A stretch of 63,753 nt of DNA, the filler included, from Reclinomonas americana ATCC 50394 (Eukaryota): the NCBI GenBank assembly GCA_048213135.1. It is 14 parts of 14 records of this genome, joined end to end, with 100 filler letters (N's around TTAATTAATTAA, not from the genome) between each part and the next. Parts side by side here need not be neighbours in the genome. Positions count along the whole stretch, not along the records: positions 50,850 to 54,981 come from AFZH01019284.1; 13 more parts are not named here. The stretch is one strand, 5' to 3'. Positions 6,521 through 55,396 of this stretch are shown here, one piece after another. The stretch's first letter is position 1; each line of letters opens with the position of its first letter. The notes under the pieces are model-generated. The model did no database searches. It saw nothing but the letters and a program-made list of their open reading frames with translations, and was not told the origin of the DNA. A program made the position numbers and the translations under genes.

Positions 6521-9158
6521 ATGAGAAGAGCTGCCCTGCTCTTGGCAGTGGCACTGGTGCTTATATGTCACAGTGCGCTTGCTGTTGGCCCGCCTGCGCC
6601 ACCAGTGCAACAGCGAGTGCTGCGAGTTGCGTGTCTTTCTCTCTGTCACACGCGCGCTCTCTTTGCTCTCCACTGTCTCCTGAGAGGTCACTGCGCAGTT
6701 CATCTCGCGACACGTGGCCTCTGCGCGCACACTATGCGCCGCAGGACCACAACAGCGATTGCCATTGTCTGCGCCACAATCGTGGAGACAACGACAGGTT
6801 GAGTGGCGCTCTTCTCTCCCTCTCTCTCACACACACACACTCCCTCACACACACGGTCGTGCACTGGCAGATGGGTAGTGGCGCAGTGGTGCATGAGGTG
6901 ACTGCGCAGTTGGGCGACTCGCTGGCGCAGGTGACTGTGGCGCAGATAGGGCGCGAATACGATGCACCGTTGGAGTTTGTCGCACTGGATGCTGGAGGTG
7001 TGAGCGATGTGTGTCTGTTGCCAGCGGTGCACGTGGATGCTCGTGAGGACGAGGAGGAGGGCGAGGAGGATCTGCTCTTGCTTGCGGAAGAGGTCGTGAG
7101 CGAAGAGGAGGAGGAGGAAGATGACCAGGAGGAGGAGGAGGAGGATGATGCAGAAGAGGAGGATGTGGTGGCAGCAGAGGAGCAGGTGTTGGGCGCGCAT
7201 CCGTGCACGTGGGGTCCGTCGTATTGGTGCGCGTCGAGTGATAATGGAGCGCGCTGCGGAGGCGGCTTTGAGAAGCTGTGCGAGCGATATCGACAGGGAC
7301 TTGACACAAAGGAGGATGCCACGAGCGAGCTGGACCGACGGCGAAGCAAACTCGGGTGGCATCCGCATTCGGTGACCTCGCCACTCGTTGTTGGAGGTGT
7401 GTGTGTGAGACACTGTGACTTGCATGCTTGTGTCGTTGAGCTCATGTGGATGGCGGGCAGATGCCGAGGCGTATGTTGCTGGTGTGTGTGCGGACAACTC
7501 TCTCCATTGTGTAGCAGAGCTTCTTGCCTCATTCTGTTCTCCTTCCAACAGTGCCACCACCCACCGCGGCCTGCTCGCTCAAGTGTGTGAACGGCGGCAC
7601 ACTGCAAGCAGACAAGTGCCAGTGCCAGTGCCAACACGGCTTCGCGGGTGCCGATTGTGGATTCCAGCCGTGCAAGCGCACGTGCAAGAACGGCAGCACC
7701 CTCGATGCCGATCATTGTGTGTGCAAGTGCAATGCGCACTTTGTCGGCCGCTCGTGCAGTCGACCACGTTGCGTTGTGTTGTGTTGTGTTGTGATTTCCT
7801 TGCTCGTCATTGGTGATTTACGCCGTCTTCCCAAATAAAACAGAGTGCGAACTGGACTGCGCCACGGGAACCGTCGATCGCGACACGTGCACGTGCAAGT
7901 GTCCACCGAACCGCATGGGTCGCCGCTGCGACTACGAACGTGCGTCTCGCTTGCGCACCAACTCGCGCACAGTCGACGCCAACTGAATATACTCTTGTGC
8001 AGAATGCTCTGTCCAGTGTCTGCATGGCCAGCTCGACGCCGACAAGTGCGCGTGTGTGTGCGACGCCGGCTTTGAGGGCACGCAATGCGAGAAACCCAAG
8101 AGCGGTGTGTGTTTGCCTGCCCGTGGCGATGGTTTCGTCAATGTCCTCACACCACCATCGTCATGCAGGCACCGGGTATGTCGAGCATTCGAAGAAGAGC
8201 ATTCGTGGTGTGGACTTTGCGTGCCCCTCGTCGGCGTGGGCCGGCGACGGCCAGTGTTGGGTGGCTGCAGCGCAGGAGGCCGACACCATTCGTACTGCGC
8301 GTCTGTTGTGCAACGCCATTGAGAACTGTCGCGGATTCGTCGTCACTGGCGGTGCGCTCGTCCTCCTCCTTCTTCTTCTTACGTGTCTATTGAACTCACT
8401 TTCGGTTCGCATCTCAGTGGCGAGTGGCAAGACGTGGGCGATTCTGCTTGCCGCGCCTGGAATTCTGGTCGACGACAATCGTGTGCGGTCATTCATCAAG
8501 GAATGCAACCTGAAGTGCAAGGATTGCGTGGTCGACAATTTCCGGTGTCGCTGTTGCGTGCACATGCACCCTGTGTTACCTGCTACCCCGTGCTCTGCAG
8601 CTCACTTTTTCTGCACGCAGGCCCGTGCAAGGACGGCAGCGATGGCATTCAATGCAACGGATCAGGTCAGTCATATTGGTTCTCTCTCTCTCTTTTCCCT
8701 CTTCCCTCTCACCCGTCTTATCCGTCTCATCCACACAGCCGAGCCACCAATATTCTACCTGCCCGACTTGCCGCGCACACCGAAGGTGCTGTTGAAGCAC
8801 TCGGAGAATTACCGCCAGTACGCCGAATCGACGCTGGTGGCGGTCCCCAAGACCGACATGAAATGCCCCAATCTGGCGCAGTCGCGTGACGGCACGTGTT
8901 GGTTCAGCACTCGCGACGAGCACACGGCCAAGCGGCAGGGTGCTTACATTTGCAATCACATGAAGGAATGCCTCGGGTACACCGTTACTGGCAGTTGCGT
9001 CTTGCACGACACAGCGTCGCGTCGCAAATCGATTAACGACTCACTCTCTCCGCTGCTGCATCACAGGCGAAGTTCGCCTGTACGGCGAGGGTGCTACGGG
9101 CGAACCGGCAGTGGATTCCGACTCATTCATTAAGTTGCAAGCGGTGGAGAACGAGTAA
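6521..9158 (+). CDS. Secreted protein: signal peptide, acidic tract, saposin A-type motif, EGF-like repeats, two Cys-rich PAN/apple-like modules
   Basis: MRRAALLLAVALVLICHSALA; CTWGPSYWC (SapA); CVNGGTL..KCQCQCQHGFAGADC-type EGF repeats; CNAIENCRGF and CNHMKECLGY. Confidence 0.7.
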
Positions 9159-11120: not shown

Positions 11121-14100
11121 CCCCCGGTTCATCGGCAGCCAGTGGAAGCGGCGCGGGTGAGCAAGTGCAGCTGCGCATCCGTGGCTCGCTCGACAAGGGC
11201 TTCTTTGTCGACGGACTGCAGGAGAGGCGTGTGCGTGGTCCGCGCAATATTTTGTCGCTGCTGGAGCGCATCACCGCTGCTCTGGAGCGCAAGCGGCGCT
11301 CACTCTCACAGTCGCACGTTGTGCTGACGATTACGCTGCGCCAACTCATTGATGAGCGTTGCGTGGGCGAGTGCGGGGGCACGGATGAATCGGTGTGTGG
11401 GTGCTGATTCCTTTCAACAAATGGCAGACTCGGGCGGTCTCATTTCGCACTTCAACTTTGTCGACTTGGCCGGCTCCGGTGCCGGCAAGGACAACAAGGA
11501 CATGCTCACGCTGTCGCGTGTCATCATGGCGCTGAACAGTGGCTCCCGCGGTGCTGCGGTGCCGTACCGCGATGCCAAGCTCACGTCCATGTTGCACCAC
11601 GCGTTTGGCGGAGATGGTCAAACTGTTGCGTTCCCCTGGATGCACCTCTCCCCGCTCTCGCGCCATCTCATGTGTCTGTGACTGGCAGCTCATGGTCGTG
11701 TGCGTTTCGCCCGACATGGAACAAGCGCCGGATACGCGTACCAACTTGGTGTACGCGGAGCGTGCGCTGCGCATCAAGAATCGACCGCGACCCAACACCT
11801 TCGACATCAAAGACGAGAGTGCGGCGCTCTTCCTCATGGAGAAGCGCATCTCGGAGATGGAACAGCAGATCGAGTTCCTCGACCAGCAGCTGGAGGAGGC
11901 GCGCACCGGTGCCGCAAACTCCGACGAGCTTGACGCTCTGCGAGCGCGCATCGCCGAGCTGGAGGCGGAGAACGCCCGTCTGCGAGCGGCTAATGCTGAA
12001 CTGCGCGAGAGGCTCGACGAGTTGTCGAAGCGACAGGCGTCACTCGAGCACGAGAATGCCACTCTGCTAGCACAGGTGAGTTGCCTTCGCTTCTCCATTT
12101 TTTTGTGTGTGGCGCTCACTCCATGTGTTGCGTGCAGCTCAAGGATGTCGACAGTGCCGGTGCGACGCTGGCCACTGAAATCTCCGACATGCACAAGCAG
12201 ATCGAGGCACAGGCGGAGCGCATTCGCGAGTATGAGAAATCCACCAAGAACGACCAGCAGCTGATCTCACAGTTGGAGGCCGACCTGGCCGATGCACGCA
12301 AGCAGCACGCCGAGTTGCACGACTTGGTACGCCACTCCCTCTCCCTCTCCCTCTCCCTCTCTCTATCCTCTCACTGACGCTCCTGTTGCAGTTTGATGCC
12401 GAGCAGCAAGTGTCGGCGGAGCGCGAGGCCGAGCTGAACGATCTGCGCGAGCAGCTGCAGGACCGCGATCGAACCATCGAGGACTTGCAGCAGCAGCTGG
12501 AGCAGTCCGAGACCGACCATGCGGCGGTCTGTCTGTGGCCTGTGTGTCTCTTTCCCTTCTCTCGCTGCAGAGCTCACTCTCGTGCGTGTCCACTGCCCAC
12601 TGCAACAGGAGCTGGAGGCGCTGAAGGCCAGTCGCAGCCAGGGGGAGCAGGAGGTCGACGCGCAACGTGAGAAATTGCGCAAGTTGGAGGCCGAGGCACA
12701 AAAGGTGCGTGAGGAGGGCCTGCACGCGCGCGTACATTCTGGCTGACTCTTCTCCGAAAAAAGCTGGCAAGTGAGCTGCAAGCCGCCAAGACCACAGTCG
12801 CGGAGCAACGAGATGAAATCGACGGCCTCAAACGGCAGGTGGGCTCACTTTCGGCAGAAAAGTCGGGCCTCGGCGACAATCTCGACTCGCTGCGTCAGGC
12901 GCGCGCCAATGTTGCGTATCCACAAGCCCCTCTGTGCGTGTTAAAATGCCCAACTTACCCCCCGTGTCGTCGGCTCGCAGCTGGAGCAAGAGTTGCAGCA
13001 GAAGAAGAAGGAGGTCGAGCAAGTACGAAGCACCCTCGACGACACCACACGACAGCGCGGTCAGTGCATGCTGTGCCTGATTCCCCTGCTTCATCACCAT
13101 CATCATCTTCTTCTCAATTTTCNNNNNNNNNNNNNNNNNNNNNNNNNNNNNNNNNNNNNNNNNNNNTTAATTAATTAANNNNNNNNNNNNNNNNNNNNNN
13201 NNNNNNNNNNNNNNNNNNNNNNCTGCAGGGTGGCACATCGCAACGCGACACACTGGAAATGTCCGTCGGCCAGCTGCAGGCGCAGCTGCGTGAGCTTCAA
13301 GGTGCTCTGACGGCGGCCGAGGCCGACAAGGCTCTCCGCATGGGCCAGCTGGCTGCGCGCAACGATGCGCTGGCGGCGGCCAAGCAGGAAATCAGTCGCC
13401 TGGAAGGTGACGTGCGACAGCAGGTGGCGTTGGTGGCCGACGGTCAAAAGACGGCATCCGGCCTCAAGAGCGAGCTGGAACGGGAGCGCGCAGCGCGAGC
13501 GGCCGACAGCGCACGATTCGAACGGCAGCTGAAGGCGCTGGAGGATGAGTTGGCGCAGCGCCGCCACCAGCTGGAGCAGGCGAACGACGAGCTGGAGCAG
13601 GTGCGTGCGGCCAAGGAGGCTGCCGATGCCGCATTGCAGGAGGTGTTGGCCAAGGTGGACAAGAAGCGCGAAAAGGTGGCCGGCGCACGAGCGACCAGCT
13701 CTGCGCTTGAGGTGATGGGTCACAAGATTCGCGAACAGCTGGCGCAACTGCAGGAGGAGCGTGCGGCGCTGGAGGCGGCGGTGGCCGACGCCAATCGCCG
13801 CTGCGAAGATGCCATTCGCGAGCGTAACCAGCGCGACGCCGCCAATGCCAAGCAGGTGGCGCGTCTGCAGGAGCAGCTGGCCGCGCAAACGAAGCGGGCC
13901 GACGGTTTGGAGATGAATCTGGACAAGGCCACTGGCGACCTGCAGAAGACGCAGGCGCAGCTTAAGCAGTCGGATACCGAGAAGCAGGCCGCCGAGAGCC
14001 GTGCATCGCAACTAGAAGAGCGACTGCGAGCGGCGCAGGAGGGTGCCAGTGCGGCGGGCAGTCGTGCTGCGGAACTCGAGGGCGAGTTGTCGCAGTGGCG

Positions 14101-17100
14101 TCGCACGGCGGAGGAACGCGGTGCACAGATCGCAGAACTCCAGCGCGGTGAGCACCGGTCGGAGCAGGCGGCTGCCCGTGCTGCCTCGCGAATTCAGCAC
14201 CTGGAGGGGCGTGTGGGCGAGCTGGAGCGTGAACACGCCGACTCGCGCGCTGCGGCCAACGATGCGCGCAAGAGCGCCGATCAGGAGCGTCTGGAGAAGG
14301 AGGCATTGGCGGCGACCGTTGCCCAGCTCACCGAGCGCCTGCGCGATGCGCAGTCGGCGCTGACCACGGCGCGGTTCGTCGATTGTCGCTGTTCTGCAGA
14401 ACAGTCTACCTGCCTACCTGCTTACACCACCCCTACATACGCACAGTGCCGCCAACACCATGCAACAGCAGCAACTGACAGCAGCCGCAACTGCGGCGGC
14501 CGAGGCCCAGCAAGAGGTGGTGCGTCTGGAGGGCTTGGCGCGCGCTCTCGAAGCGCAGTTGCGCGATGCCAAGGTGCAGCTGGGAGAAGGCGCAGCGCAG
14601 CTGGAGAGCGAGAGGAGTGCTCGTTGCGTCCAGCCGCCTTTTCCCTGTTTGACTCTTGCTGGCTATTTATGATGTTGTGCAGGAGCGGCGGAGGCCAAGG
14701 TGGCTGCTGCCAACAAGAAAACGCTGGAGGAGCAGCTGGCGGTGCAACGGCAGGCGGTGGCCGACTGCCAGAAGGAGCTGCATGATGAGCGTGGAGCGCG
14801 TGCGGCTGCCGAGTCGGCTCTCCGTGAGGCGAAGCAGGCGTTGCAGCGTGAGGAGGTGAGGTCGATCGAGCAGTGGTGTCGTGATGGAGTACGCACTAAT
14901 GCGTGCACACGCATGACACTGTGCAGGGCAAGGTGACGTCGAGTGAGGCCGCTCTGACCGACGCCCTCAACAAGCTTCGCCAGCGGAACACACAGATTGA
15001 AGAACTGGCGGCGCACGAAGCAGCGCTCACCAAGCTGCTCGACGATGTCGAGAAGGAGAGGGTTGAACGTGTGGCTGCGCACGAGCGTGAGTGCTCGACT
15101 CTGGCCGAGCAGCAGAAGCAGGTTTGATGCCATCAACACGCTCATTGACCCTCTTCCTCTCGTCAACTTACATGCATGTGTGGGGGGGAAAAACAGTTGG
15201 CCGCGCAGTTGGACGCCGCCGGTAGCCGAGCTGTGGCGCTGGAGCGCAAGGACGAGGAGAAGGGTCGCGTGATTGACGGCCTGAAGAGCGACTTGCAGGC
15301 CTCGCGTGCTGCCACTGCCGATCTGGAGACGCGCCTGGCGCAGCACCAGAAGCTGCTGCGGGATGCGGAGGCGGCGCGTGTCGCTCTCGCATCGCGCCTC
15401 ACCGAGGTCGAATCGGAGATGCAGCAGTGGAAGACGACGGCGGAGGAGCGTGGCAAGCGGCTCTCCGAGTTGCACCACGATCTCGAGCAGGTGCAGCAGG
15501 CAGAGGCGCGACAACAGGCGCGCGCCGATCATCTGGAGAGTCGTCTGAAGGAGGCTGAGAGGGCGCTGGAGGAGGCGCGTGCGGCACTGGCCGCCGAGCG
15601 TGCACTCAGTGCCACTGCGGTGGTCGACAAGGACAGTGTGCAGGCCGAAAATGCGCAGCTGCGTGATCGGCTGCGAGTGGCGCAGGCGGCACTCACTTCG
15701 GCGCAGGCAGACGTTGCGCTGGCCAAGGAGGAGGCCAACACACGAACGGCTGCACTGGCGCAGCGGCAAGCGGATGTAGCCCGGTTGGAGCAGAGCCTGC
15801 GCGACTCGGATGACCATGGCAAGGAGTTGGCGCGTCAGCTGGCGGAGCTGCAGGCGGAACACGACCGCAGTGTGCGTACCAATGCTGCGGCCGTGGAGTC
15901 CCTGACGCAGGCGCAGCAGCAGGCGCAGCACGAGTTGCAGGACCGCGCGCTGGCCATTGAGGATTTGAGCAATCAGCGAGCGACGCTGCAGGCTGAGGTC
16001 AACCGTCTGCGTGCCGAGGTGGAGAAGCGCAACAGCGAATTCGGCAACACCGATGCCGAGCTGCGTCGCAAGACAGCCGAATGCACGCGTCTGCAGGCCA
16101 AGAGTGCGTCGCTCGAGTCGCGAGTGGCGGAGGTGGAGACCAATCTCGACTCGACAAAGCAGGCGCTTCGCGATGCGCAGGCCGCCGTCGATAAGCTGCG
16201 CGCGGACAAGGATGCGCTCGGCAGCGAGAGCAGCAAGTTGCGCGCCCAGGCGCAGGAGTTGCGCGATGCGGCGGCTGCCGCCAACCAGGCGGTCAGCCAC
16301 ACCAAGGAGCAACTGGACGCGGCAACACGCGACCTGGCCGAGGCACAGCGCGAGGTACATTCATCTTCCTTCCTCTCCCTAGCCTACCTACCTTGTGCTG
16401 TGCTGACACTCTCCTTTCGTCGTGCAGTTGAGCAAGTTGGATGCGTCGCTGGTGTCGGAGAGTGCCAAGTTGCGCGACGAGAGTAAGAAGGGCCAGGCGC
16501 TCGCCGACGAACTCGAAGGTGTGCGGCGGCAGGCGGCGGCCGATGCTAAGGCCGCCGAGGCACGTCAAGATGCTCTGCGTCGCGAACTCGCCGCGTGCCA
16601 AAAGGCACTGAAGGAGACAGAGGCCAAGTTGGCGAGCGAAACGCGCGCTCGCGAGGATCTGGAGGCCCAACTGGCCGCCCTGAACGACAAGGTGCAGCAG
16701 AAAAAGTCCAAGGTGCAGAGTGTGCGCGGTGAGCTCCACCAGCAANNNNNNNNNNNNNNNNNNNNNNNNNNNNNNNNNNNNNNNNNNNNTTAATTAATTA
16801 ANNNNNNNNNNNNNNNNNNNNNNNNNNNNNNNNNNNNNNNNNNNNACTGGAGAAGTCGCTGGCCGAGACCGCGGCTCGCCTGGCAGACACGCAGAACAAG
16901 CTGAAGGACTGTGAAGACGCGCTGCAGCGCGAACGACGTGGTCGAGCGGCCGATAAGCAGGCTGCCGGTGCGCAGGTTGCACAGCTCGAGGCCGATGTTG
17001 CTCGACATGTGGCGGCACAAGCTGATCTGAGTGGCAAGCTCGAGGGTGCGCACCAGCTGGCCACCGACGCCGTTGCGCAAGTCAAGGAGGTTTGTATGTG

Positions 17101-20100
17101 GACACGCTTGATTTCTCATACGGTCGAGTTCGTTCTAACAAGCGAGTCTCCAGCTGACTGGCAAGGTGACAAACAAGAAGGCCAAGATCGGCAACTTGAA
17201 GAACGCCGTCGCTGATCAGCGGCGACAGGCTGAGGTACTTTTCCTCGTTTTTGTTTTCTTGTGTGATGCTGATGCTCATCCATTGTGCGACAGAACAACC
17301 GCGCACAAGCCGAGAGCCTGCGTGCGGATGTCGACAGTCTCCGACAGCAGCTGGAGGCCGAAAAGGCGGCGCGTGAGTCGCTGAAGGGAGAGAAGGCACA
17401 GGCCGACGCCGAGGCAGCAGCCGCTGCCACCGAGGTTTGTTTCTGCAGAAGAGAGAGTGTTGGCTCATGAATTACTCAACTTGAACCACCAGCATCGCCG
17501 GCAATTGTCCGCACTGGAGGACAAGGTGGCCGCTCTGCAGTCCACCGTCGAAGACGACAATGCCGAGAAGCGCACATTGCAGTCGCGCCTCAAGGCCGCC
17601 GAAGCCGACAAGGCTGCGCTGGCGGAGCGACACGAGGCAACCGAGCGTGAGCTGGCCGGCGTGGCGGAGAAACTGGGCGCCTCGTCGTTGCGCGAGAAGG
17701 CACTGCTCGGCGAGGTGGACGAACTGAAGGCGCAATCGGCAGCCAAGGCCGCTCAGTTGGCCGACCTGCAGAGTGCTCTGCGTCGTGCCGAGGAGAATGC
17801 GCTGCGTGCTGACAATCGCAACAAGGCGCTGAAGGCGCGTATCGACGAGCAAGACGAGGCGGCCGAAGTGCAGCGCAAGGCGCTGCTGGCCGCCAATGCC
17901 GCGGTGGAGGACGAGCGCCGCGATCGGGAGCGCATGAATGGCGAGATTCGCGAGGCCGGTGCACGGTTGACGGCAGCCGAGGGCGAGGTCGCGCGTCTGC
18001 GCACGTTGCTGGACGAGGCCGTGCGTGCCAAGGACACCACCTCGGCGGGAGATGCGCAGCGGCTGGCGGAGATTGTTCGCATGGAGAGCGAGCTGCAGGA
18101 GGAGCAGAACCGGTGCGCGGCGTTGAAGCGACGCGTTGCCGACATCACCGAGGCGCTGGACCGGGAGAAGGCGGCCGTCGCACGTGCTGCGGCCGAGGTC
18201 GCCGATCTCAAGGCGCAGCTGGCCAAGGCCGCCGAGGCAGCGCAAGCACAAAACGCCAAGGCCGATGGCCAGCAGCAGGCGGCCGCGGAAGCACTGGCGG
18301 CGGAGCGTGCTCGAGCCAATGAGCTCGCCGAGGAACTGGCCGCGGCACGCAAGCAGGTGTGTGTGCTCAAGTGGGCAAGTTTGATGGGAGGTTTTTTGAC
18401 TGTCACTCACCTTTTATCTGCATGCAGGTCGACGCACTTGCCGCCCAGATCAAGGAGGGCCGCGAAGGCGCTGCGCAAGCGGATGAGGTGATTGTTTTTA
18501 CGTGGGTTGTGAATTGCGCCTCGCGGTGAATGATCTGACTCGCTTGCTTTGTTGGCGACGACAGCGTGCCCGCGCGCAAAAGTCCCGCCTGGAGAGCGAG
18601 CTGACGACGGCCGCCGAGCGTCTGCGACAGCAGGACACGGAGACCAAGAATCGTGTGGCCGCGTTGGAGGAGGAGATTGCTCGCTTGCGTGAGCAGCTGC
18701 GAGCGGTGACGCACGATGGAGTGGCCGCCAAGGCGGCCGCCGACGAGGAGGCGGAGAAGCTGAATTCCGAAATCAACAAGCTGCGCACGGCGCTCGAGCG
18801 TGAGCGTGGCGACGCCAGTGCCGATTCGGTGCGTCTGCGTGAGCGATTGGCGCTGCTGGAGAAGGAGGTGGCGGACAAGCAAGTCGAGATTTCGTCCAAG
18901 GAGGTGAGCAGGGAGAGCATGGTCATCGATTCATGTGATTGTGTGTGTGTGTTTTTTTGTTACTGACTCTTGGCGAGCAGGCGCAAATCGCAGCCATGCG
19001 CGGAGAGTTGCAGGCGGCCGCCAACAGGGTGCACGATGCGAATCGCGAGGTGGCGGTCGCCAAGGAGAAAGTGGAGGCAGCCGAGCGTCGAGTGCGTCGT
19101 GAGACCGATCACAACAGTGCGCTGCAGAAGCAGCTGGAGGAGCTTGCGGAGCGGCGGTCGCAGTTGGAGCGCGATCTGGAGGAGATCCCGCGGCTGCAAA
19201 TGGAGCTGGACCGTGCACGAGCTCTCATCTCCAATCAGCAACTGGCCATTGCTCAAGGCGACACCAAGTACGAGGCACTGCGGAAGCACACGGATGAAGT
19301 GGAGGCGAAGCAGGCGAACCACGACGCAGAGCGCGGTGCACTACTGGACAAGATCGACGACTTGGAGCGGTCGCTCATTGCTGCCGAAGCCGAGACCAAG
19401 GCCACGGCCGAAGCGGTGAGAGTTGTTTGTAGAGTGTGACATTCAGCTCTGCATGCTCACGACTGCGCAGGCTGCACGCGCCGATGCGGAGACCAAGAAG
19501 GCGCATGCCAGAGCCGCGGATCTGACCATGGCGCTGGAGCAGCTGAAGCACGAGGTTTGATGGCCTCGCAGAGTTGGTCTTGCTGCGCATGGCGGTGCTG
19601 ACTGGCCGTTTGCAGTTGGAGGCGCAGCAAATGCAGAACCGAGTGCAGGCGGAACAGGCGGCTGCGGAGCAGACTGTGCTGAACGACACCATTCGTGACT
19701 TGAAGATGCGCGAGGAGTCGCTGATGGGCGAGCTGCAGCGTCTCTCGTCGACAATTGATATTGCCAATGTGGCCATTCAGGATCTGCGCGGCGACAAGGA
19801 GCGGGTGGGTTGTCTCGCTTGTGTCACCATCCGCGGTACAAAGTTGCTTATAATCTGTGTTCGTGTATGTACACAGCTGGAGGCCGAAATCGCCAAGTTG
19901 CAGCACGCACTCGACGTGGCGACGGGCGACTTGGCGAGTGCACACGAGGCCAAGGGTGAGTTCCCATTCTCTCTCGTTGCACCGTACGCCAGTGTCGTTG
20001 AATCTCACTGATTTGTCTCTTCTCCCACCGTTGCAGCCGCTCTTGATGTGCGCTGCAATGCAGCGGAACAGCTGGCCGAGAAGCGCCTGGAACGCATCAA

Positions 20101-20867
20101 GCAGCTGGAGGACGAGCTCCGTCAACTGCTGTCTCGTTCCAACACCGCCATCAAGAACCTGACCACGGAGCTGACTGAGGCGCGGTCGGCGCTGGCCGAC
20201 GCACGTGCCGATCTCGGCACCACCACCAACGAGAGGAACGAATTGCTGGAGCAGCTGTCGAACGAGAGGCAGGCGCACCAGGCTGACAACACGCAGAATA
20301 CCGAAGAGCTGGCACGTCTGCGTGCCGAGTTGGCCGAGGCGAAGGAACGCCACTTGAAGGAGATGCAGAGCACGGTCAATAGCCTGCGCTCCACCATGAA
20401 GGCTCTCGACACGGAGGTCGCGACGCAGAAGCGTTTGGCCGATGGTGCGTCGCCATCGTCGTCCCGAGTGTGATCACGTCTCTTTCTCCCCCTCGTTGAC
20501 TCACTCGCAACTGTGTTGTTTGTGTGCAGAGCGCGCCAAGCGAGTGGGCGAGTTGGAGCGCCTCTTTGCCGAGGCACAGATGGTGATTACGAAGAATAAC
20601 GCGGAGCTCGACCGAGCACGCAACGAGTTGAATACGTTGGAGAATGCTCGCGCCCAGCTGGCGCAGAGCGACGAATCGCGAGCCCTGCTGCAAAAGGACT
20701 TGCGAGATGCGCAGGCCAAGCTGGCTCTGATGGAAGAGGAGGTCGACTACTTGCGATCGGTGGTCGACGGTAACCCGCGTCTGCACGACCTGGTCTACAT
20801 TGACGACAAACTGGCCGGTAGCCGCAGCAGTGGTAGTGACCGTAGCAAGCGTCCGTGGAAGCCGTAG
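11121..20867 (+). CDS. Divergent kinesin motor domain (C-terminal half visible) plus very long coiled-coil tail; spans two gaps
   Basis: GFFVDGLQE, SHVVLTITL, FNFVDLAGSG, VPYRDAKLTSML, FGGDGQTLMVVCVSP, NLVYAERALRIKNRP, then about 9 kb of heptad E/A/L/Q/R-rich exons with mostly phase-0 introns. Confidence 0.8.
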
Positions 20868-31892: not shown

Positions 31893-31980
31893 GAGCTCGA
31901 TATTGTGGAGACATGAACTGAAAAAAACAAACAAACAATGACCCAAGTGTTGCTGAACCGAAACAGGGGCTACACTCTCG

Positions 31981-33567
31981 CTACAGAGTGAAAAAGACGC
32001 CGGCGGCCGAGGCCACCAACATGATTAGTGCCAAAGTGACCAGCTGAATGCTGGCCGGCAGGGGTGAAGCAGTGCCGGTGGCACTGTTCGTGGTTGTTGC
32101 GGTTGTGGTGGTTGTCGTCGTTGTTGTCGCATCGTAGGCTCCAGTGGCACTGAGAAGAGCATTGCTCTGCACGCGCGGAACGAAGGAGTGAGTGGTGAGA
32201 TCCGGCGCGCGGAGACACAGTGTGCACAGTGCGGTACCTGCAGCCATGTCACGTACGCCGAGACGCGGATGAATGTGTATACTCCAGCCTGCACGCACCC
32301 ACACACACACACAGGAGACAAAGTGTTATGGCGGTCACCACTTGGATGATGAAGAGGGGACGATGCGACGCACAGCTGCTCCGCACGCTGATGGGCCCGA
32401 CACGACGACACCGACCACCACGTTGTTGACGAGTGCCGGACCGCCAGTGTCCTTGAGGCACGGCGAGTTGCCGGCGGTAGTGGTCATGCACACTTGCGTG
32501 TTGATGTCTGCACAGAGGAAGAGGTGCGTGAGGAGAATGGGAAAAATGGTGCGACAGTGAGCGACGGGCGAAACTGTCGCAGCCGGGAGTGGTGCCGACC
32601 ACCGTGGTCAGATTCACCGACTTGAGGCGAGTGGAGGTGGTCGCGGTGGTGCTCGCCGTGGGATCGGAGGTGACGCCAAAGCCGACCACCGCTGCATCGC
32701 ACGTGAGACCAGTCGTCCACTCGCTCACACGCCTCCCACGCAACTCGTGGTGACTCCCACATTCATGTTCTTGTTGTTGAGTGTGGCCGGAGCGACAATC
32801 GTGGTCTTCAAGAACGACAAGTCAGTCTTCACAATGGCAATGTCGTTGACGCCAGAACCCGTCCACCCGGGGTAAAAGATGACAGCGACCACCGGCACGG
32901 CCGCCTGACTGGACCCGGTGATGTCGATCTGACCGCCCACGGCCCAGATATTGGAGAGGGACTGGCCGACAGAAAAGCACCGCCTGCACATTTCCCGAAC
33001 ACTCAGCATGACGGGCGAGAAGAAGCGGAGAGAGGATGATGGGAGACAAGGGGACGCAACGCGGCTGTCATGATCGAGTTGGAGTTGATCAGGGTGCCGC
33101 CACTGTGGAGAGAGGAAGAAGGGTGAGGCGGATCATTCCCACTGCATCGGCTCGCATGATGCTCACCACTGCGCACAGCACGAGTGAGAACACGCCAAAC
33201 AGGTGATCGACAGACAAACAGAGTGAGTAAGACGCAACAAAGGGCGTTCCCAGCGGCGACTGCAACGAGATGAAGCTGCGTGCAATTAATCACTGTCAGC
33301 AATCGCTCACCGCAACAGAGAACCTGCGAGCCGCACCTGGGGTACAGTGACGCAGAGGAGACTGTGGTGCCACCCACAATGCGATCATCGATCTCCGCAC
33401 TGTCGACACCAGCGTCCTCTGATATCATCATCAGCAGAGAGGAGGTGCAATGTTGAGTGAGACAACAAAAGAAAGGCAGAAGAGGGGAAGGACAACGCAC
33501 CACTCGCGTGCGTCAGTAATACCAGCATCAGCAACACCAGCAGCAGCACGAACACTAATCTCCTCAT
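31981..33567 (-). CDS. Trypsin-like serine protease homolog (catalytically degenerate) with signal peptide, Thr-rich stalk and hydrophobic C-terminus
   Basis: RIVGG activation site, FCGGTLI, TAARC, NDIAIVK, VVGFG, CLKDTGGP, YTFIRVSAYVTWL. Confidence 0.85.
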
Positions 33568-50749: not shown

Positions 50750-52176
50750 NNNNNNNNNNNNNNNNNNNNNNNNNNNNNNNNNNNNNNNNNNNNTTAATTA
50801 ATTAANNNNNNNNNNNNNNNNNNNNNNNNNNNNNNNNNNNNNNNNNNNNCAGAGCAGCGGTGTGTGATCTGCTGACTGTGCTGACAGTGCGCGCACGCAC
50901 ACACAGGCTCCCCGATGGTGGCACGCAGTGGGCGATACCGAGTCTCACGTCGACCAATGTGCACATGCGAGTGTTCCCAATGGGTGGTGTGGCGACCGGT
51001 GAAGATGCGCACGCGCGTCGCCAGAGGGAGGCAGCGGCCGACTTTTCCGCCGCCTCACTCGTCTGCACGTCGGTGGGCTCGGTGGCGCAGGATCAGGTGG
51101 CCAGCTTCGACACTGTCGTCGGACCACCCGTGTTCTCGCTGTACGCCTTTGATGTGTTCTGGAATCAACAGTTCCGCTCCATTGCGGAAGACCACGCAGC
51201 GGCGGTGGCGGCCGCCGTGGCCACTGGCACGACGCAAATGCTTAACCGGCGTCGTTCGTTTGTGGCCGGCGCTGGGCTCACCATTTCGGATGCCACCGCC
51301 GGCATTATCCGTCGACTGAATCGTCGCCGACGTGTGCGCCCCAAGGGTGAGTGACTGTGTGTGCGCGTGAAGGAGAGAAGTGAGGGTGTGCTAAGATTGG
51401 CCGTCGTGGCGCAGACTGGGCGCGTGAGTGCTTGGCGCGACATTTCTTCCCCGAGTCTCGCGACGCGGTGTCGTGGATTGTCTTTTGGCGCTCGGAGAGC
51501 GGCATGCGCGGTCAGATTCATCTCAGCGACGTTGCGTGATTTTTGTGGGTGGGGGGTGCTGCTGCTGCCGATCAATCAATCTCACGGGGCGCCACAGTCG
51601 ATTGAGCTACCGGCGTTGCAAGTGGAGCACGTGTTGAATGTGCACTCGGCCGAGGTCACCGACAACACATGCCCGCTGAAGATGCGCTTTGTTCACCCCA
51701 GCGAGTTGGTGCACGACTTTAGCAATCCTCTCGAGTTGCGTGACTCTGTGTCAACACTTGTCTCGTCTTCTTTATCTCACAGCCCCCGCGCAGTCTGTGC
51801 ACCGTGCCGGTGATGATCGAGTTGCACAACCGCATGGTGGACACGTCGGTGTGTTTAGAGTTGGAGCTGCTGCAGCCATTTGAGGAGGGCGACGCGTGGT
51901 GTGGACCTGTGTTCTCCTGGGCCGGCAGTGTCAAGTCCACCATTCGACTGGAGGGACACGAGACGCGGCAGATGCCAATGCAGGTGCGTGTGGCAAGCAG
52001 CAATGCAGTTGACGATTGCGAGTTCTCATGCGTCTTGTCTGTGCTGCGTGCAGGCCGTGTTCACGTCTCCGGGAACGTACAATCTCACGGCCGTGCGCAT
52101 GATGCTGTTCTCGCCCGTCGGTCTTGAGCTGACATGTGCGACTCAGAACCTCATTCATGTGAGACAAGCAGAATGA
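47971..52176 (+). CDS. TRAPPC8: TRAPP III subunit TRAPPC8/Trs85; fragments across two gaps
   Basis: N-terminal PTVMVSSS..A...NRLTYDALLRPY; ALFLEQSAYCYL..RKFAFYLTLAGFRY..HALRCY; VEVVFENPLDVPL; C-terminal HDFS, WAG, FTSPGTYNL. Confidence 0.82.
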
Positions 52177-52264
52177 ACGAGGCGGAAGATTTTCGACGAT
52201 CCATCGGTCGGTGAGGCTGGTTTTTCATCGTTTTTTTCACAGAAGACAGACGCACGCAGCCACC

Positions 52265-52952
52265 ATGGACACCACCATTACGATGCACGCCAAGCACATC
52301 ATTCCCAAGCAGAAGTACGAGGAATCGCTGGTATGTTCGGAGCGTGTGCCTATCGGGACACACATCGCATCGCATCTGCTTCTCATGAACGTGTGTTTTT
52401 CGCGAATGGGCAGGCCGTGCTCGAGCACGGCACTCGGGCCATCAAGGAGGCTGGCTGCGCTCTGGCCTTAAGCTTTTGCGTGTGTGTGGGAGAGAGAGAG
52501 AGAGTATCTTGTGTGCAATGAGTTTTTCCGCTCTCGTCGATAATCATGGTTGTTGTTCTGTTGGATGCACAGTGGTGTGCAGGAGACCCCGATGGGCTTC
52601 GTGCTCACACCGCGCTGTTGAGTGTGTTGTTCGCCTAACTGTGTGCAAAACAGCAGTCGTCCTCACTCATCAAGTGCGCAGTGATTTGTGCGACTGCGGA
52701 GGACGTGCTGAAATCTTTCCAGGCCGCTCGGCCTACCCTCGCGGAGGCTGCCACTGTTGCGTCTCCCGCTGTCTCTCCACGGGTGCGTCGTCAGCTCACC
52801 TCGATTCCTTCTTGCAGCTCTTCCCGTTGTACGACATGGAGGTCATGGGGCCGGCGGAGGAGATTGAGAAGCTCAAGCCCGTCTTCGATCCCGTGTTTGG
52901 ACCGCGCTACTCGATCATTCTGGAGAGCGTCGGTGGCCACAAGACCTTCTGA
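52265..52952 (+). CDS. Small dimeric alpha-beta barrel (ABM-like) protein, paralog A, 5 exons
   Basis: MDTTITMHAKHIIP...MEVMGPAEEIEKLKP; same exon layout as paralog B; fold assignment from recalled similarity of the EVxGPAEExEKLK motif. Confidence 0.6.
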
Positions 52953-53347
52953 TTCGCAACCCGGTGGCCATGACTGCGATTGCCTTGATAATGCAATTGC
53001 AAGTGCTAGGCTGCAGCTGGCGCGCGCCGGTCTGGCTGTTGCCCCACACCCTCCCCACCCCCTCTAACTTCCCCTTTCACCAGTTGTCGCACGAGTGTGC
53101 GTATCAATGAACACGCACTGGTGTTGAACTCACTGTCGCTTCGTGTATCCTTCTGATTGCTGTGAGTTGGTGTGTGTGGTCTTGCTGATGCCCCCCCCTC
53201 TGCACTTCGTGTGGCACACGGACACGGCACTCATAAACCGGCGCGTCCGCGCGCCCGCGAAGGCTGCGTTCGAATTTGTCGTCGGATATCCACACGGTGT
53301 CCCACTCGTCCACTTACTTTCCAACAAGACACACGCACGCAGCAGCC

Positions 53348-54072
53348 ATGGACACCACCGTCACCATGATCGCCAAGCACATCATCCCCAAGCCCAAGTA
53401 CGAGGAGGCAGTGGTACGAGTGTTGTGTTTGTGTGGAGGCATGTCAGCCACCGGAACACCCATCACATGCTTGTACATGTTGTTGTTCGTGTGTGCGCAG
53501 GATGTGCTCACTCGAGGCACTCACGCCATCAAGGAGGCCGGTACCACTCTGGCATTCAGTTTGTTGCGTGCGCTGAGTGAGAATTCGAAGAATTTTTCCG
53601 ATACGTCGTACGCGTGACATTGCAGCGTTTCTATCTTTTTGCGTGTTATAGTGGCGTGCAGGAGACCGCGAGGGGCATTGTGCTGACGCCGCGCAGTTGA
53701 GTGGGGACTGCTGCACATCTCACTGCTGCATACAGCTCCTCACTCGCATTAATCATATGCATATGCATGTCCGCCGTGTTCATGCAGTGATCTCCGCCGA
53801 CGCAGAGGGCATGATGAAGGCGTTCCAAGCCGTTGGACCCATCCTCGCGGAGTTCACCTCTGTTGCGCCTCTCTCCCCTCTGTACAGCAGGAAAGGTGGG
53901 CACGTGCATGCGCATGCAAAACTCATGATCGCAACAGCTCTTCCCGATGTACGACATAGAGATCATGGGACCGGCGGAGGAGATCGAGAAGCTCAAGCCC
54001 TTCTTCGACCCGATGCTCGGACCGCGCTACTCGGTCATTCTGGAGAGCGTCGGCGGCCACAAGGCCTTCTAA
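53348..54072 (+). CDS. Small ABM-like protein, paralog B, 5 exons
   Basis: MDTTVTMIAKHIIP...IEIMGPAEEIEKLKPFFDPMLGPRYSVILESVGGHKAF; clean GT-AG model. Confidence 0.7.
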
Positions 54073-54257
54073 TCATGACACCGGATCCAGACGTCGTCAT
54101 CTGCAGCCGCTTGTAGCATGGCAGGATCATGCTGCCGTCGTAGCTGCACGTGCCCCACCTCCCCTTCTTCTTCCTTCCCTTTCACCAACCACGAATGAAC
54201 TTCCACCGTTTGCGCCTTGTCCTTCCAACCCCTCTGCATTCCTTCCACAACCGAGCC

Positions 54258-54980
54258 ATGCTTGCTCTTGCCCGCCTCTGCACCCCGCGCACAGTGTGCT
54301 CCGTGAGCACAGTCGGCCGTGTGGCCGTGCGCTCGTTCGCCAGTGCCACCGACGAGAACTTGAGGGTGCGGCATCTTCTCTCTCTCTTTCTCCCCCCTCT
54401 CGCGCTGCACTTGTTGCTGCGAGTTACACCACTCCTCCCTCTCTGTCTCTTGCCTGCATCGACTGGCGTGCACACCTGCATGCGTCACGCGTCAAGTGGC
54501 CATGGCTTGCTTACACACTCGCACCCTCTCACACTCTCTCTCACACACACTGCTTCTTGTCGCATGCAACACACACTCACATATGCATGTGTGCACCTTC
54601 AATCCCTCTCTCCCCCTCTCTCTCTCTCATGCGCTGATTCACATGTTTGATGTCACTCCGCTGCTGACTCCGCGTGTTTCTCTCTTGCTCGTTGCTCATA
54701 TGTGCTCTCTGTGTGTGTCCATGTGCATGTGCATGTACATACGTACAGCTTGCGGTGTCGAGCTCGTCACAGGCCAAGTTGCGTGCATTGATCCCAGTCA
54801 AGTTGTCTTCACTGTTCATGCACTCACTCGCTGCGCCTCTGTTGTTGTTCTGCAGTCGGTGAGGCCTTGCACTCCCTCGCACTTGCATGCACGCGTGTGT
54901 GTTTTGCGCGCACTTACTCACATTCGTCTCTTTCCTGCAGCCGCTACCTGTACTTTGCGCAGCAGGCTGACGTGGAAGGT
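54258..54980 (+). CDS. Rubrerythrin/erythrin-like protein with mitochondrial-type presequence (3' end lost in gap)
   Basis: MLALARLC...AVRSFAS presequence (Arg-rich, no acidic residues), then TDENLRLAVSSSSQANRRYLYFAQQADVE, matching rubrerythrin helix A. Confidence 0.8.
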
Positions 54981-55396
54981 GNNNNNNNNNNNNNNNNNNN
55001 NNNNNNNNNNNNNNNNNNNNNNNNNTTAATTAATTAANNNNNNNNNNNNNNNNNNNNNNNNNNNNNNNNNNNNNNNNNNNNCGCATGCGGAAAGCTCGTT
55101 TGCCATCGACGACGACGACGATGTTGTCGTTGACGAGGACAATGCGCGGTCGACATCGACGACGCTGCCGGCGCGTCGCCATGTGGTGCGCCATGTGGTG
55201 CGCTCATGAGCGCCGCAACGATATCGACCACAATACCACAATTCTCCACTTCTCTTTGTGTTTCAGTTGTCAGTCCCTGGTTTCCCCTTATGCTTGTGTG
55301 TAATCGCGCGCCCTTTTTCTCATAAACAACTCGGCGTGTTTGCGTCCGTCCCGTGACGCGTTTCGACAACTTTTTTGTTGTTCGAATTTGGGAGAC

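What the first reader, a model, noticed from the sequence alone, without database searches (positions are those of the whole stretch)
54856..54858. Predicted 3-nucleotide microexon (TCG) in the rubrerythrin gene
The sequence reads GCC AA|gttgcgt..78 nt..ctgcag|TCG|gtgagg..82 nt..ctgcag|C CGC TAC. Inclusion gives A-N-R-R-Y-L-Y-F-A, the rubrerythrin consensus. Skipping stays in frame but deletes one Arg from helix A, so it could be a regulated switch. The architecture matches the 2-nt exon: shifted GTTGCGT donor upstream, and G|GTGAG donor after the microexon.
Basis: partly seen in the sequence, partly recalled or inferred. Interest (0 to 1): 0.78.

Follow-up and report, generated by a model that had tools for sequence, protein, structure and literature searches.

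The report
Three-base exon in rubrerythrin gene
A three-letter exon sits between two ordinary short introns in a protist's mitochondrial-type rubrerythrin gene and supplies a conserved arginine; such tiny exons are known elsewhere, and this one has no RNA proof yet.

Summary
TCG at 54856-54858 lies between a CTGCAG acceptor and a GTGAGG donor, with 78-nt and 82-nt introns on either side.

The window is 14 small eukaryotic contigs joined by N spacers. The gene is cut off at the contig end, 54981.

Including TCG gives QANRRYLYFA, which is collinear with every relative examined:
- 15 of 15 PDB hits.
- A Burkholderia copy.
- The Andalucia mitochondrial aerobic-type rubrerythrin.
- 32 of 32 metagenome genes.
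- 101 of 103 cluster representatives have no indel in this helix.

A gene finder trained on the window itself found introns tightly peaked near 70 nt: 138 of 155 are 46-91 nt. It predicted the TCG exon without using homology. With the target gene left out of training, inclusion is favoured by 3.7 nats.

A second tiny exon, the 2-nt TG at 33167-33168 (minus strand) in a trypsin-like gene, is required to keep the reading frame.

No RNA run was available, so inclusion is inferred and the "regulated switch" idea is untested.

One oddity remains: the first iron-binding Glu is Ser in this gene.

Verdict: a probable real microexon, and a new member of a known kind.

The parts
54258..54365 (+). Exon 1: start codon, a basic N-terminal presequence with no acidic residues, then T-D-E-N-L-R, where the rubrerythrin domain begins
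   Evidence: Translation. ENLR aligns with ENLK/ENLR of relatives.
54366..54748 (+). Intron 1, 383 nt, GTGCGG...TACAG, rich in CT/CA/TG low-complexity repeats
   Evidence: The exon 1 to exon 2 junction is collinear with relatives, with no residue missing. No alternative GES-coding piece is found in any frame.
54749..54777 (+). Exon 2, 29 nt: L-A-V-S-S-S-S-Q-A plus AA, the first two bases of the Asn codon
   Evidence: Also predicted by the self-trained gene finder.
54778..54855 (+). Intron 2, 78 nt: GTTGCGT donor, ACTCAC branch-like motif at 54822-54827 (A is 29 nt from the 3' end), pyrimidine tract, CTGCAG acceptor
   Evidence: With the target left out of training, the donor scores at the 79th percentile and the acceptor at the 56th percentile of training sites.
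54856..54858 (+). The 3-nt microexon TCG: T completes AAT (Asn), and CG starts CGC (Arg)
54859..54940 (+). Intron 3, 82 nt: GTGAGG donor, ACTCAC at 54916-54921 (A is 20 nt from the 3' end), pyrimidine tract, CTGCAG acceptor
   Evidence: Donor at the 18th percentile and acceptor at the 57th percentile of training sites.
54941..54981 (+). Exon 4, cut by the contig end: C, then R-Y-L-Y-F-A-Q-Q-A-D-V-E-G
   Evidence: No further rubrerythrin piece is present elsewhere in the window.

Best explanation
TCG (54856-54858) is a real internal exon of three nucleotides in the 5' part of a nuclear gene. The gene encodes a mitochondrion-targeted, aerobic-type (sulerythrin-like) rubrerythrin homologue of an intron-rich protist.

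Two ordinary short introns of 78 and 82 nt flank it. Each has its own donor, CTCAC-type branch motif, pyrimidine tract and CAG acceptor. Both introns interrupt codons in phase 2. After both are removed the mRNA reads GCC AAT CGC CGC TAC, and helix A gets the conserved Asn-Arg-Arg-Tyr.

Inferred, not shown: inclusion is constitutive. Each intron is recognised as a unit (intron definition). The acceptor of one intron and the donor of the next are only 3 nt apart, so the two introns are probably removed one after the other rather than together.
For: (1) Homology needs the extra codon.
- All 15 PDB hits to the exon 4 query are rubrerythrin or sulerythrin, and the five alignments printed read NRRYLYFA, four of them with a preceding A.
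- Burkholderia stagnalis reads GESQANRRYLYFASKADVEG.
- The Andalucia godoyi mitochondrial aerobic-type rubrerythrin reads ENLRMAFSGESMANRRYLYFATQADVQG (supplement passage).
- 32 of 32 metagenome genes encoding RYLYFAQQADVEG have x-R immediately before RY.
- Among 150 representatives of 50%-identity clusters, 103 cover this region. Of these, 101 have no indel between ENL and VEG, and the other 2 look garbled.
- The include form scores higher than the skip form against 122 of the 150 representatives, lower against 25 and equal against 3. Best pairs score 118 against 102.

(2) Splice signals.
- A gene finder trained only on this window gave 155 introns with median 70 nt. Of these, 138 are 46-91 nt, 8 are 127-196 nt and 9 are longer.
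- It predicted the TCG exon unaided. TCG was the only exon of 5 nt or less among 124 internal exons.
- With the target gene left out of training, inclusion beats skipping by 3.7 nats. Only 1.5% of all AG sites in the window score as high as the internal acceptor.
- CTCAC occurs in the 3' part of 54 of 138 short introns, against 19 in a 5' control stretch. Both flanking introns carry ACTCAC at 29 and 20 nt from their 3' ends.

(3) Chance is low. There is 1 observed site against 0.17 expected in about 125 kb.

(4) Precedent in the same window. A 2-nt exon, TG, with 70-nt and 64-nt introns is needed to keep the frame of a trypsin-like gene.

(5) The two flanking introns are not copies of each other.
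Against: - No transcript evidence exists. No RNA run could be listed, and two metagenome scans found no copy from this organism.
- The donor after TCG is weak: 18th to 22nd percentile of predicted donors, and 11% of all GT sites score as high.
- The gene finder's length model itself favours two short introns over one long one, so its prediction is partly circular.
- The same gene finder missed the 2-nt exon, so it is not a reliable judge of tiny exons.
- The gene has Ser-Ser where relatives have Gly-Glu, the first iron ligand. Glu is present in 100 of 103 representatives. The copy may therefore be degenerate, which weakens arguments from conservation.
- Only about 32 residues of the mature domain are present in the window.
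Confidence: 0.8

Rival explanations
1. There is a single 163-nt intron (54778-54940). TCG is never included, and the internal acceptor-TCG-donor is a coincidence or a dead relic. The protein has a one-residue deletion in helix A.
For: Skipping stays in frame. Eight predicted introns of 127-196 nt exist in the window, so this length is possible. The donor after TCG is weak. The gene already departs from the family at the Glu ligand.
Against: - 101 of 103 relatives tolerate no indel in this helix.
- The chance of such a site is about 0.17 per 125 kb, and it happens to encode exactly the missing Arg.
- The 'single intron' holds two full sets of branch motif, pyrimidine tract and CAG acceptor.
- The model favours inclusion by 3.7 nats.
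Confidence: 0.06
2. TCG is an alternatively spliced cassette. Both forms are made, and the ratio is regulated to switch helix A between two registers.
For: Both forms are in frame. The donor after TCG is weak, which is typical of skippable exons. In Drosophila, microexons whose length is a multiple of 3 are enriched in coding sequence (passage read).
Against: Nothing was observed at RNA level. A one-residue deletion inside a four-helix-bundle helix is absent from 101 of 103 relatives, so the skipped form is more likely a splicing error than a working isoform.
Confidence: 0.07
3. The locus is a decaying or non-catalytic paralogue, or holds sequence errors of a fragmented draft. In that case the splicing pattern has no bearing on a working rubrerythrin.
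For: Gly-Glu is Ser-Ser here, while Glu is present in 100 of 103 relatives. No alternative coding piece exists. The contigs are short and the gene is cut. A ligand-less bacterial variant exists in L020.
Against: The reading frame is open across all four pieces. The presequence and all splice signals are intact. The rest of helix A matches relatives closely.
Confidence: 0.07

Closest known systems
Ultra-short microexons (1-3 nt) of short-intron genomes, such as Coprinopsis cinerea
   Same: Internal exons of 3 nt or less, flanked by short introns, missed by standard annotation and needed for a correct protein. The paper reports 89 gene models with an exon of 3 nt or less: 13 exons of 1 nt, 57 of 2 nt and 27 of 3 nt (passage read in PMC12230235).
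   Different: Those are backed by long-read RNA. This one rests on homology and splice signals only. The organism here is an unidentified protist, and its commonest donor is GTTGCG.
Animal microexons of 3-27 nt (Drosophila, nematode and vertebrate neuronal programmes)
   Same: Coding exons whose length is a multiple of 3 and that add or remove a few residues (passages in PMC8042270; abstract listing of PMC8378409).
   Different: Animal microexons sit between long introns, are mostly alternative, and depend on tissue-specific regulators. Here the introns are about 80 nt and inclusion is probably constitutive.
Mitochondrial aerobic-type rubrerythrin of eukaryotes (Gray et al. 2020, Andalucia godoyi)
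   Same: An N-terminal presequence followed by ENLR...ANRRYLYFA.QADV.G. The family is scattered among protists and predicted to be mitochondrial (section 50 and supplement parts of PMC7050145).
   Different: The Andalucia gene is listed with 0 introns and has Gly-Glu-Ser. This gene has at least 3 introns in its first 60 codons and has Ser-Ser-Ser.
Recursive splice sites (zero-length exons, AG|GT)
   Same: An acceptor and a donor almost touching inside what looks like one intron, which implies stepwise removal.
   Different: Three coding bases remain in the mRNA here. A recursive site leaves none. This description of recursive sites is recalled, not from a call.

Membership tests
Aerobic-type rubrerythrin (sulerythrin-like, Pfam PF02915) | Helix A signature and its fixed spacing (ENL..A..GES.ANRRYLYFA..ADVEG) | tested here: met
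   Met with TCG included. It is collinear with PDB chains, the Burkholderia copy, Andalucia and 101 of 103 representatives. Without TCG it is one residue short.
Aerobic-type rubrerythrin (sulerythrin-like, Pfam PF02915) | First iron-binding Glu in helix A (G-E-S) | tested here: not met
   The window has S-S-S. Glu is found in 100 of 103 representatives, Asp in 2 and Ser in 1 garbled row. No other coding piece for it exists.
Aerobic-type rubrerythrin (sulerythrin-like, Pfam PF02915) | Remaining ligands (ExxH, E, ExxH), about 140-residue domain, no rubredoxin domain | not testable with these tools
   The contig ends at 54981. There is no other piece in the window, and no genome is held.
Aerobic-type rubrerythrin (sulerythrin-like, Pfam PF02915) | Mitochondrial presequence, as in eukaryotic members | tested here: inconclusive
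   The first 31 residues are basic with no Asp or Glu. No targeting predictor was run. The paper predicts mitochondrial location for relatives.
Microexon (internal exon of 3 nt or less) | Usable acceptor directly before and usable donor directly after | tested here: met
   Acceptor score 4.9 (56th percentile of training acceptors; 1.5% of all AG sites score as high). Donor score 0.65 (18th percentile; 11% of all GT sites score as high)..
Microexon (internal exon of 3 nt or less) | Both flanking introns viable on their own (length, branch motif, pyrimidine tract) | tested here: met
   Lengths are 78 and 82 nt, against a window peak of 46-91 nt. ACTCAC lies 29 and 20 nt from the 3' ends, and 102 of 138 short introns have such a motif at 8-50 nt.
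Microexon (internal exon of 3 nt or less) | Present in mature mRNA | not testable with these tools
   No RNA run could be listed. Two metagenome scans gave nothing from this organism.
Alternatively spliced (regulated) cassette exon | Both include and skip forms present, with a ratio that changes with condition | not testable with these tools
   No RNA data.
Recursive splice site | Acceptor and donor directly juxtaposed (AG|GT), leaving nothing in the mRNA | tested here: not met
   Three bases (TCG) lie between AG and GT, and homology requires them in the mRNA.

The most novel reading that the evidence does not exclude
This protist may routinely build genes with 2-3-nt exons in a stereotyped layout: an intron with a GTTGCGT donor, then the tiny exon, then an intron with a G|GTGAG donor. 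If so, tiny exons are common genome-wide. They would depend on ordered, recursive-like removal of the two introns. The unusual GTTGCG 5' splice site, seen in a quarter of predicted introns, would be read by U1 in a register shifted by one base.
Probability: 0.2. Interest if true: 0.6.

Novelty: new member of a known kind. Interest (0 to 1): 0.4.

Why it matters
Gene finders and read aligners normally miss exons of 1-3 nt. Here that error would yield a rubrerythrin lacking a conserved arginine. In the neighbouring trypsin-like gene it would cause a frameshift.

Two such exons in 64 kb suggest the genome holds many. Its annotation would then need microexon-aware methods. The organism could also be a simple system for studying how a spliceosome that defines introns copes with an acceptor and a donor only 2-3 nt apart.

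The gene itself belongs to the little-studied mitochondrial aerobic-type rubrerythrin system proposed to date back to the last eukaryotic common ancestor (PMC7050145).

Tried and rejected
- **RNA evidence.** No RNA holder was listed for the 4.1-kb contig. Read laying could therefore not be used.
- **Whole genome.** None is held.
- **The organism's own protein.** Exon 1 plus five intron codons found nothing among longer proteins.
- **Goniomonas avonlea.** Considered because its assembly is similarly fragmented. Its reported GC is 55.2% and its intron mode 46 nt. These do not obviously fit the window (GC about 58%, intron peak about 70 nt). I did not pursue it.
- **Metagenome scans.** The exact exon 1 stretch gave 0 hits. 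A degenerate pattern for RYLYFAQQADVEG gave 32 loci, all intronless bacterial genes, so no cross-species intron comparison was possible.
- **Motif enrichment before gene models.** A first 6-mer enrichment upstream of YAG was too noisy.
- **Codon model.** The first self-training drifted to coiled-coil genes. It was redone with those genes left out.
- **Helix A tally.** The first tally was contaminated by matches to helix C. It was redone on full-length alignments.
- **Other readings of the splice sites.** A donor 5 nt downstream of 54778 breaks the frame. No other AG lies near 54940. Retaining either intron runs into a stop.
- **Hidden GES exon.** No GES-coding piece exists in intron 1.
- **Intron duplication.** The two flanking introns do not align, so the microexon did not arise that way.
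- **RNA families.** Rfam found nothing in the window.
- **Literature.** A search for a GTTGCG/GUUGCG splice consensus found nothing relevant.
- **Protease check against PDB.** A search with the IVGG exon gave no hit because the query was too short.

Full report
**What the window is**

The 63,753 bases are 14 contigs of 1.2-12.4 kb, joined by N44-TTAATTAATTAA-N44 spacers. GC content is about 55-65%. Pfam finds eukaryotic domains on long open frames: saposin, P450, WD40 and a dihydroorotate dehydrogenase. The genes are full of short introns, as described below. No whole genome is held, and no close relative of a conserved protein is in the protein collection, where the best identity is 49% over a partial match and 47% for the best full-length hits. 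It is an intron-rich protist.

**The observation**

The finding lies on contig 50850-54981. Reading the sequence gives this gene model:

| Part | Coordinates | Length | Content |
|---|---|---|---|
| Exon 1 | 54258-54365 | 108 nt | 31 basic residues without Asp or Glu, then T-D-E-N-L-R |
| Intron 1 | 54366-54748 | 383 nt | GTGCGG...TACAG, low-complexity repeats |
| Exon 2 | 54749-54777 | 29 nt | L-A-V-S-S-S-S-Q-A plus AA |
| Intron 2 | 54778-54855 | 78 nt | GTTGCGT...CTGCAG |
| Microexon | 54856-54858 | 3 nt | TCG |
| Intron 3 | 54859-54940 | 82 nt | GTGAGG...CTGCAG |
| Exon 4 | 54941-54981 | 41 nt | C plus R-Y-L-Y-F-A-Q-Q-A-D-V-E-G, cut by the contig end |

Including TCG gives ...Q-A-N-R-R-Y-L-Y-F-A. 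Skipping it gives ...Q-A-N-R-Y-L-Y-F-A. Retaining either intron meets a stop codon.

**What the gene is**

- A 20-residue query ending in the exon 4 peptide hit 15 distinct PDB sequences. All are rubrerythrin or sulerythrin. The five alignments printed read NRRYLYFA: the rubrerythrins continue NRRYLYFASKADVEG (three of the four show a preceding A) and sulerythrin reads SMANRRYLYFAKRADEEG. E-values of 0.08-0.2 are individually weak because the match is 13-16 residues.
- A Burkholderia stagnalis copy reads ...TEENLKYAFAGESQANRRYLYFASKADVEG....
- Gray et al. 2020 (PMC7050145; I read section 50, passages, and parts of supplements 1 and 3) describe a mitochondrial "aerobic-type" rubrerythrin scattered among protists.
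- The Andalucia godoyi protein in their supplement has a presequence followed by ...HENLRMAFSGESMANRRYLYFATQADVQG...

The window's gene has the same layout, a presequence followed by ENLR. It is best filed as a homologue of that mitochondrial protein. The rest of the gene is not in the window.

**Does homology need the three bases?**

Yes.

- From ENL to RY, relatives have 14 residues. The window has 14 with TCG and 13 without.
- I searched 1.84 billion cluster representatives with a Burkholderia rubrerythrin. There were 6,555 hits at E 0.001 or better, and the best 150 were returned.
- Of those 150, 103 are 400 residues or shorter and cover this region. Of the 103, 101 have no insertion or deletion between ENL and VEG. 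The two exceptions are garbled rows.
- At the four positions in question the residues are Asn in 95, Arg in 96, Arg in 100 and Tyr in 100 of the 103.
- A local alignment of the conceptual product, joined by coordinate in the script box, scored higher for the include form against 122 of the 150 representatives. It scored lower against 25 and equal against 3. The best pairs scored 118 against 102. Forty-seven of the 150 were not counted as covering helix A (over 400 residues, or not spanning the region). I did not check the 25 one by one.
- All 32 metagenome genes that encode RYLYFAQQADVEG have x-Arg directly before it. They are bacterial and intronless, so they say nothing about intron positions.

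**Do the splice signals stand on their own?**

I wrote a small exon-chaining gene finder. Its codon model was trained on the window's own open frames, and its splice-site matrices and intron-length model were learned by iteration.

- It gave 155 introns with a median of 70 nt. Of these, 138 are 46-91 nt, 8 are 127-196 nt and 9 are 234-728 nt.
- Without any homology input it predicted exons 54749-54777, 54856-54858 and 54941-54981. It missed exon 1 because of the long first intron.
- TCG was the only exon of 5 nt or less among 124 internal exons, so the program does not scatter microexons.
- A feature the program did not model as such supports its introns. CTCAC occurs in the last 45 nt of 54 of 138 short introns, against 19 in a control stretch near the 5' end. 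In 102 of 138, a CT[CGA]A[CT] motif places its A 8-50 nt from the 3' end.
- Both introns beside TCG carry ACTCAC, at 29 and 20 nt from their 3' ends.

I then retrained with the target gene left out (152 introns):

| Site | Score | Percentile among training sites | Share of all such dinucleotides scoring as high |
|---|---|---|---|
| Acceptor before TCG | 4.9 | 56th | 1.5% of AG sites |
| Donor after TCG | 0.65 | 18th | 11% of GT sites |

The include path beats the skip path by 3.7 nats. Part of this comes from the length model, which by construction prefers two 80-nt introns to one of 163 nt.

**Chance**

- Across 124,906 nt (both strands), the window holds one AG-N3-GT site with scores this high, and it is this site. 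Thirty block shuffles gave a mean of 0.17.
- Of 48 YAG-N(1-6)-GTRAG matches, only two have an acceptor score above 4.
- Among the 17 other predicted introns of 100 nt or more, only one holds any internal acceptor-donor pair above loose thresholds, and that one is 8 nt.
- The three bases must also keep Asn and create Arg. That is roughly a further 1-in-32 coincidence by my own arithmetic.
- The two flanking introns do not align with each other, so this is not a duplicated intron or an assembly stutter.

**A second tiny exon in the same window**

The other high-scoring site is TG at 33168-33167 on the minus strand. It lies in a gene whose downstream open frames match Pfam Trypsin (E 1.6e-4, above the cut-off; and E 0.007, below it).

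By coordinate the structure is: exon ...IVGG... to 33337, intron 61 nt, exon 33275-33239, intron 70 nt (GTTGCGTC...GCGCAG), TG, intron 64 nt (GTGAGCAT...CCACAG), exon 33102-33061. With TG the product reads ...PFCGGTLINSNSIMTA. Without it the frame shifts. The reading of FCGG..TAA as a trypsin hallmark is recalled, not from a call.

This exon cannot be skipped, so the organism's spliceosome does handle exons of 2 nt. My gene finder missed it because its donor scores -1.1. That shows the finder is not sensitive for such exons.

However, GTTGCG is simply the commonest donor hexamer in the window, at 34 of 138, followed by GTGCGT at 13 and GTGAGT at 13. GTGAG-type donors make up 20 of 138. With only two cases the shared layout is no more than a lead.

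**An unexplained point**

Where relatives have Gly-Glu-Ser, with Glu as the first iron ligand, this gene has Ser-Ser-Ser. Glu is present in 100 of 103 representatives. No other frame or hidden piece encodes it. The possible explanations are:

- a non-catalytic or decaying paralogue;
- a real lineage-specific change;
- an error in a fragmented draft.

One bacterial metagenome gene (L020) likewise lacks the ligands. The other ligands lie beyond the contig end. This weakens the label "working rubrerythrin" but not the case for the microexon, because every other aligned position around it is conserved.

**How it most likely works**

Shown: the sequence layout, the need for one more codon, and the completeness of both sets of splice signals.

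Inferred:
- Both introns are removed, TCG stays in the mRNA, and helix A gets Asn-Arg-Arg-Tyr.
- With introns of about 70 nt, the spliceosome probably recognises each intron as a unit.
- The acceptor and the next donor are 3 nt apart, so the factors binding them would clash. The introns are therefore probably removed in sequence.
- Regulated skipping is possible but has no support.

**Comparison with what is known**

Exons of 1-3 nt are documented with long-read RNA in the short-intron fungus Coprinopsis cinerea: 89 gene models, including 27 exons of 3 nt (passage read). Microexons of 3-7 nt are described in Drosophila (passages read). This is therefore a new member of a known kind, in an unnamed protist and in a gene family where it had not been noted.

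My searches found no paper on microexons in rubrerythrin genes or on a GTTGCG donor consensus. The library is limited to open-access papers, and I did not read part 1 of supplement 3 of PMC7050145 in full.

**Verdict**

- The microexon reading is probably right, at about 0.8 for constitutive inclusion and somewhat higher for any inclusion at all.
- The switch idea is untested.
- Interest is moderate. The finding is a good annotation catch and a pointer to a genome with recurrent ultra-short exons and an odd 5' splice site. It is not a new kind of biology.

Noticed in passing
window 33167-33168, minus strand (gene about 31980-33431): A 2-nt exon, TG, in a trypsin-like protease gene, flanked by introns of 70 and 64 nt. 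With TG the product reads ...PFCGGTLINS...; without it the frame shifts. It follows a GTTGCGT-donor intron and is followed by G|GTGAGC, the same layout as the TCG exon.
   Followed up: partly
whole window (138 predicted short introns): The commonest 5' splice-site hexamer is GTTGCG (34 of 138), ahead of GTGCGT (13) and GTGAGT (13). It looks like the usual GTGCGT moved one base downstream, which may mean U1 pairs in a shifted register. Introns peak tightly at about 70 nt, with a CTCAC/CTGAC branch-like motif.
   Followed up: partly
window 54758-54763: The rubrerythrin homologue has Ser-Ser where 90 and 100 of 103 relatives have Gly and Glu, the first iron ligand. It may be a non-catalytic copy, a pseudogene or a draft error.
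   Followed up: partly
L020 (metagenome contig, bacterial): A bacterial aerobic-type rubrerythrin gene reading AFAAAAQANRRY... and ...ATADGATG, so it lacks the Glu ligands of helices A and B. This is a natural ligand-less variant.
   Followed up: no
window 13223-20470, plus strand: A run of long coiled-coil-rich open frames spans two contigs, with weak hits to CCDC113/CCDC96-type coiled coils. They dominated a first round of codon-model training.
   Followed up: no
P0121, P0122, P0124 and other representatives of 650-1957 residues: Very long proteins carry 3-8 tandem rubrerythrin-like stretches at about 35-44% identity to the Burkholderia query.
   Followed up: no
window 7583-8016, plus strand: A predicted 434-nt intron holds an internal acceptor-8 nt-donor pair (TCGACCAC; scores 4.8 and 2.1). 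It could be another small exon or a mis-modelled gene.
   Followed up: no
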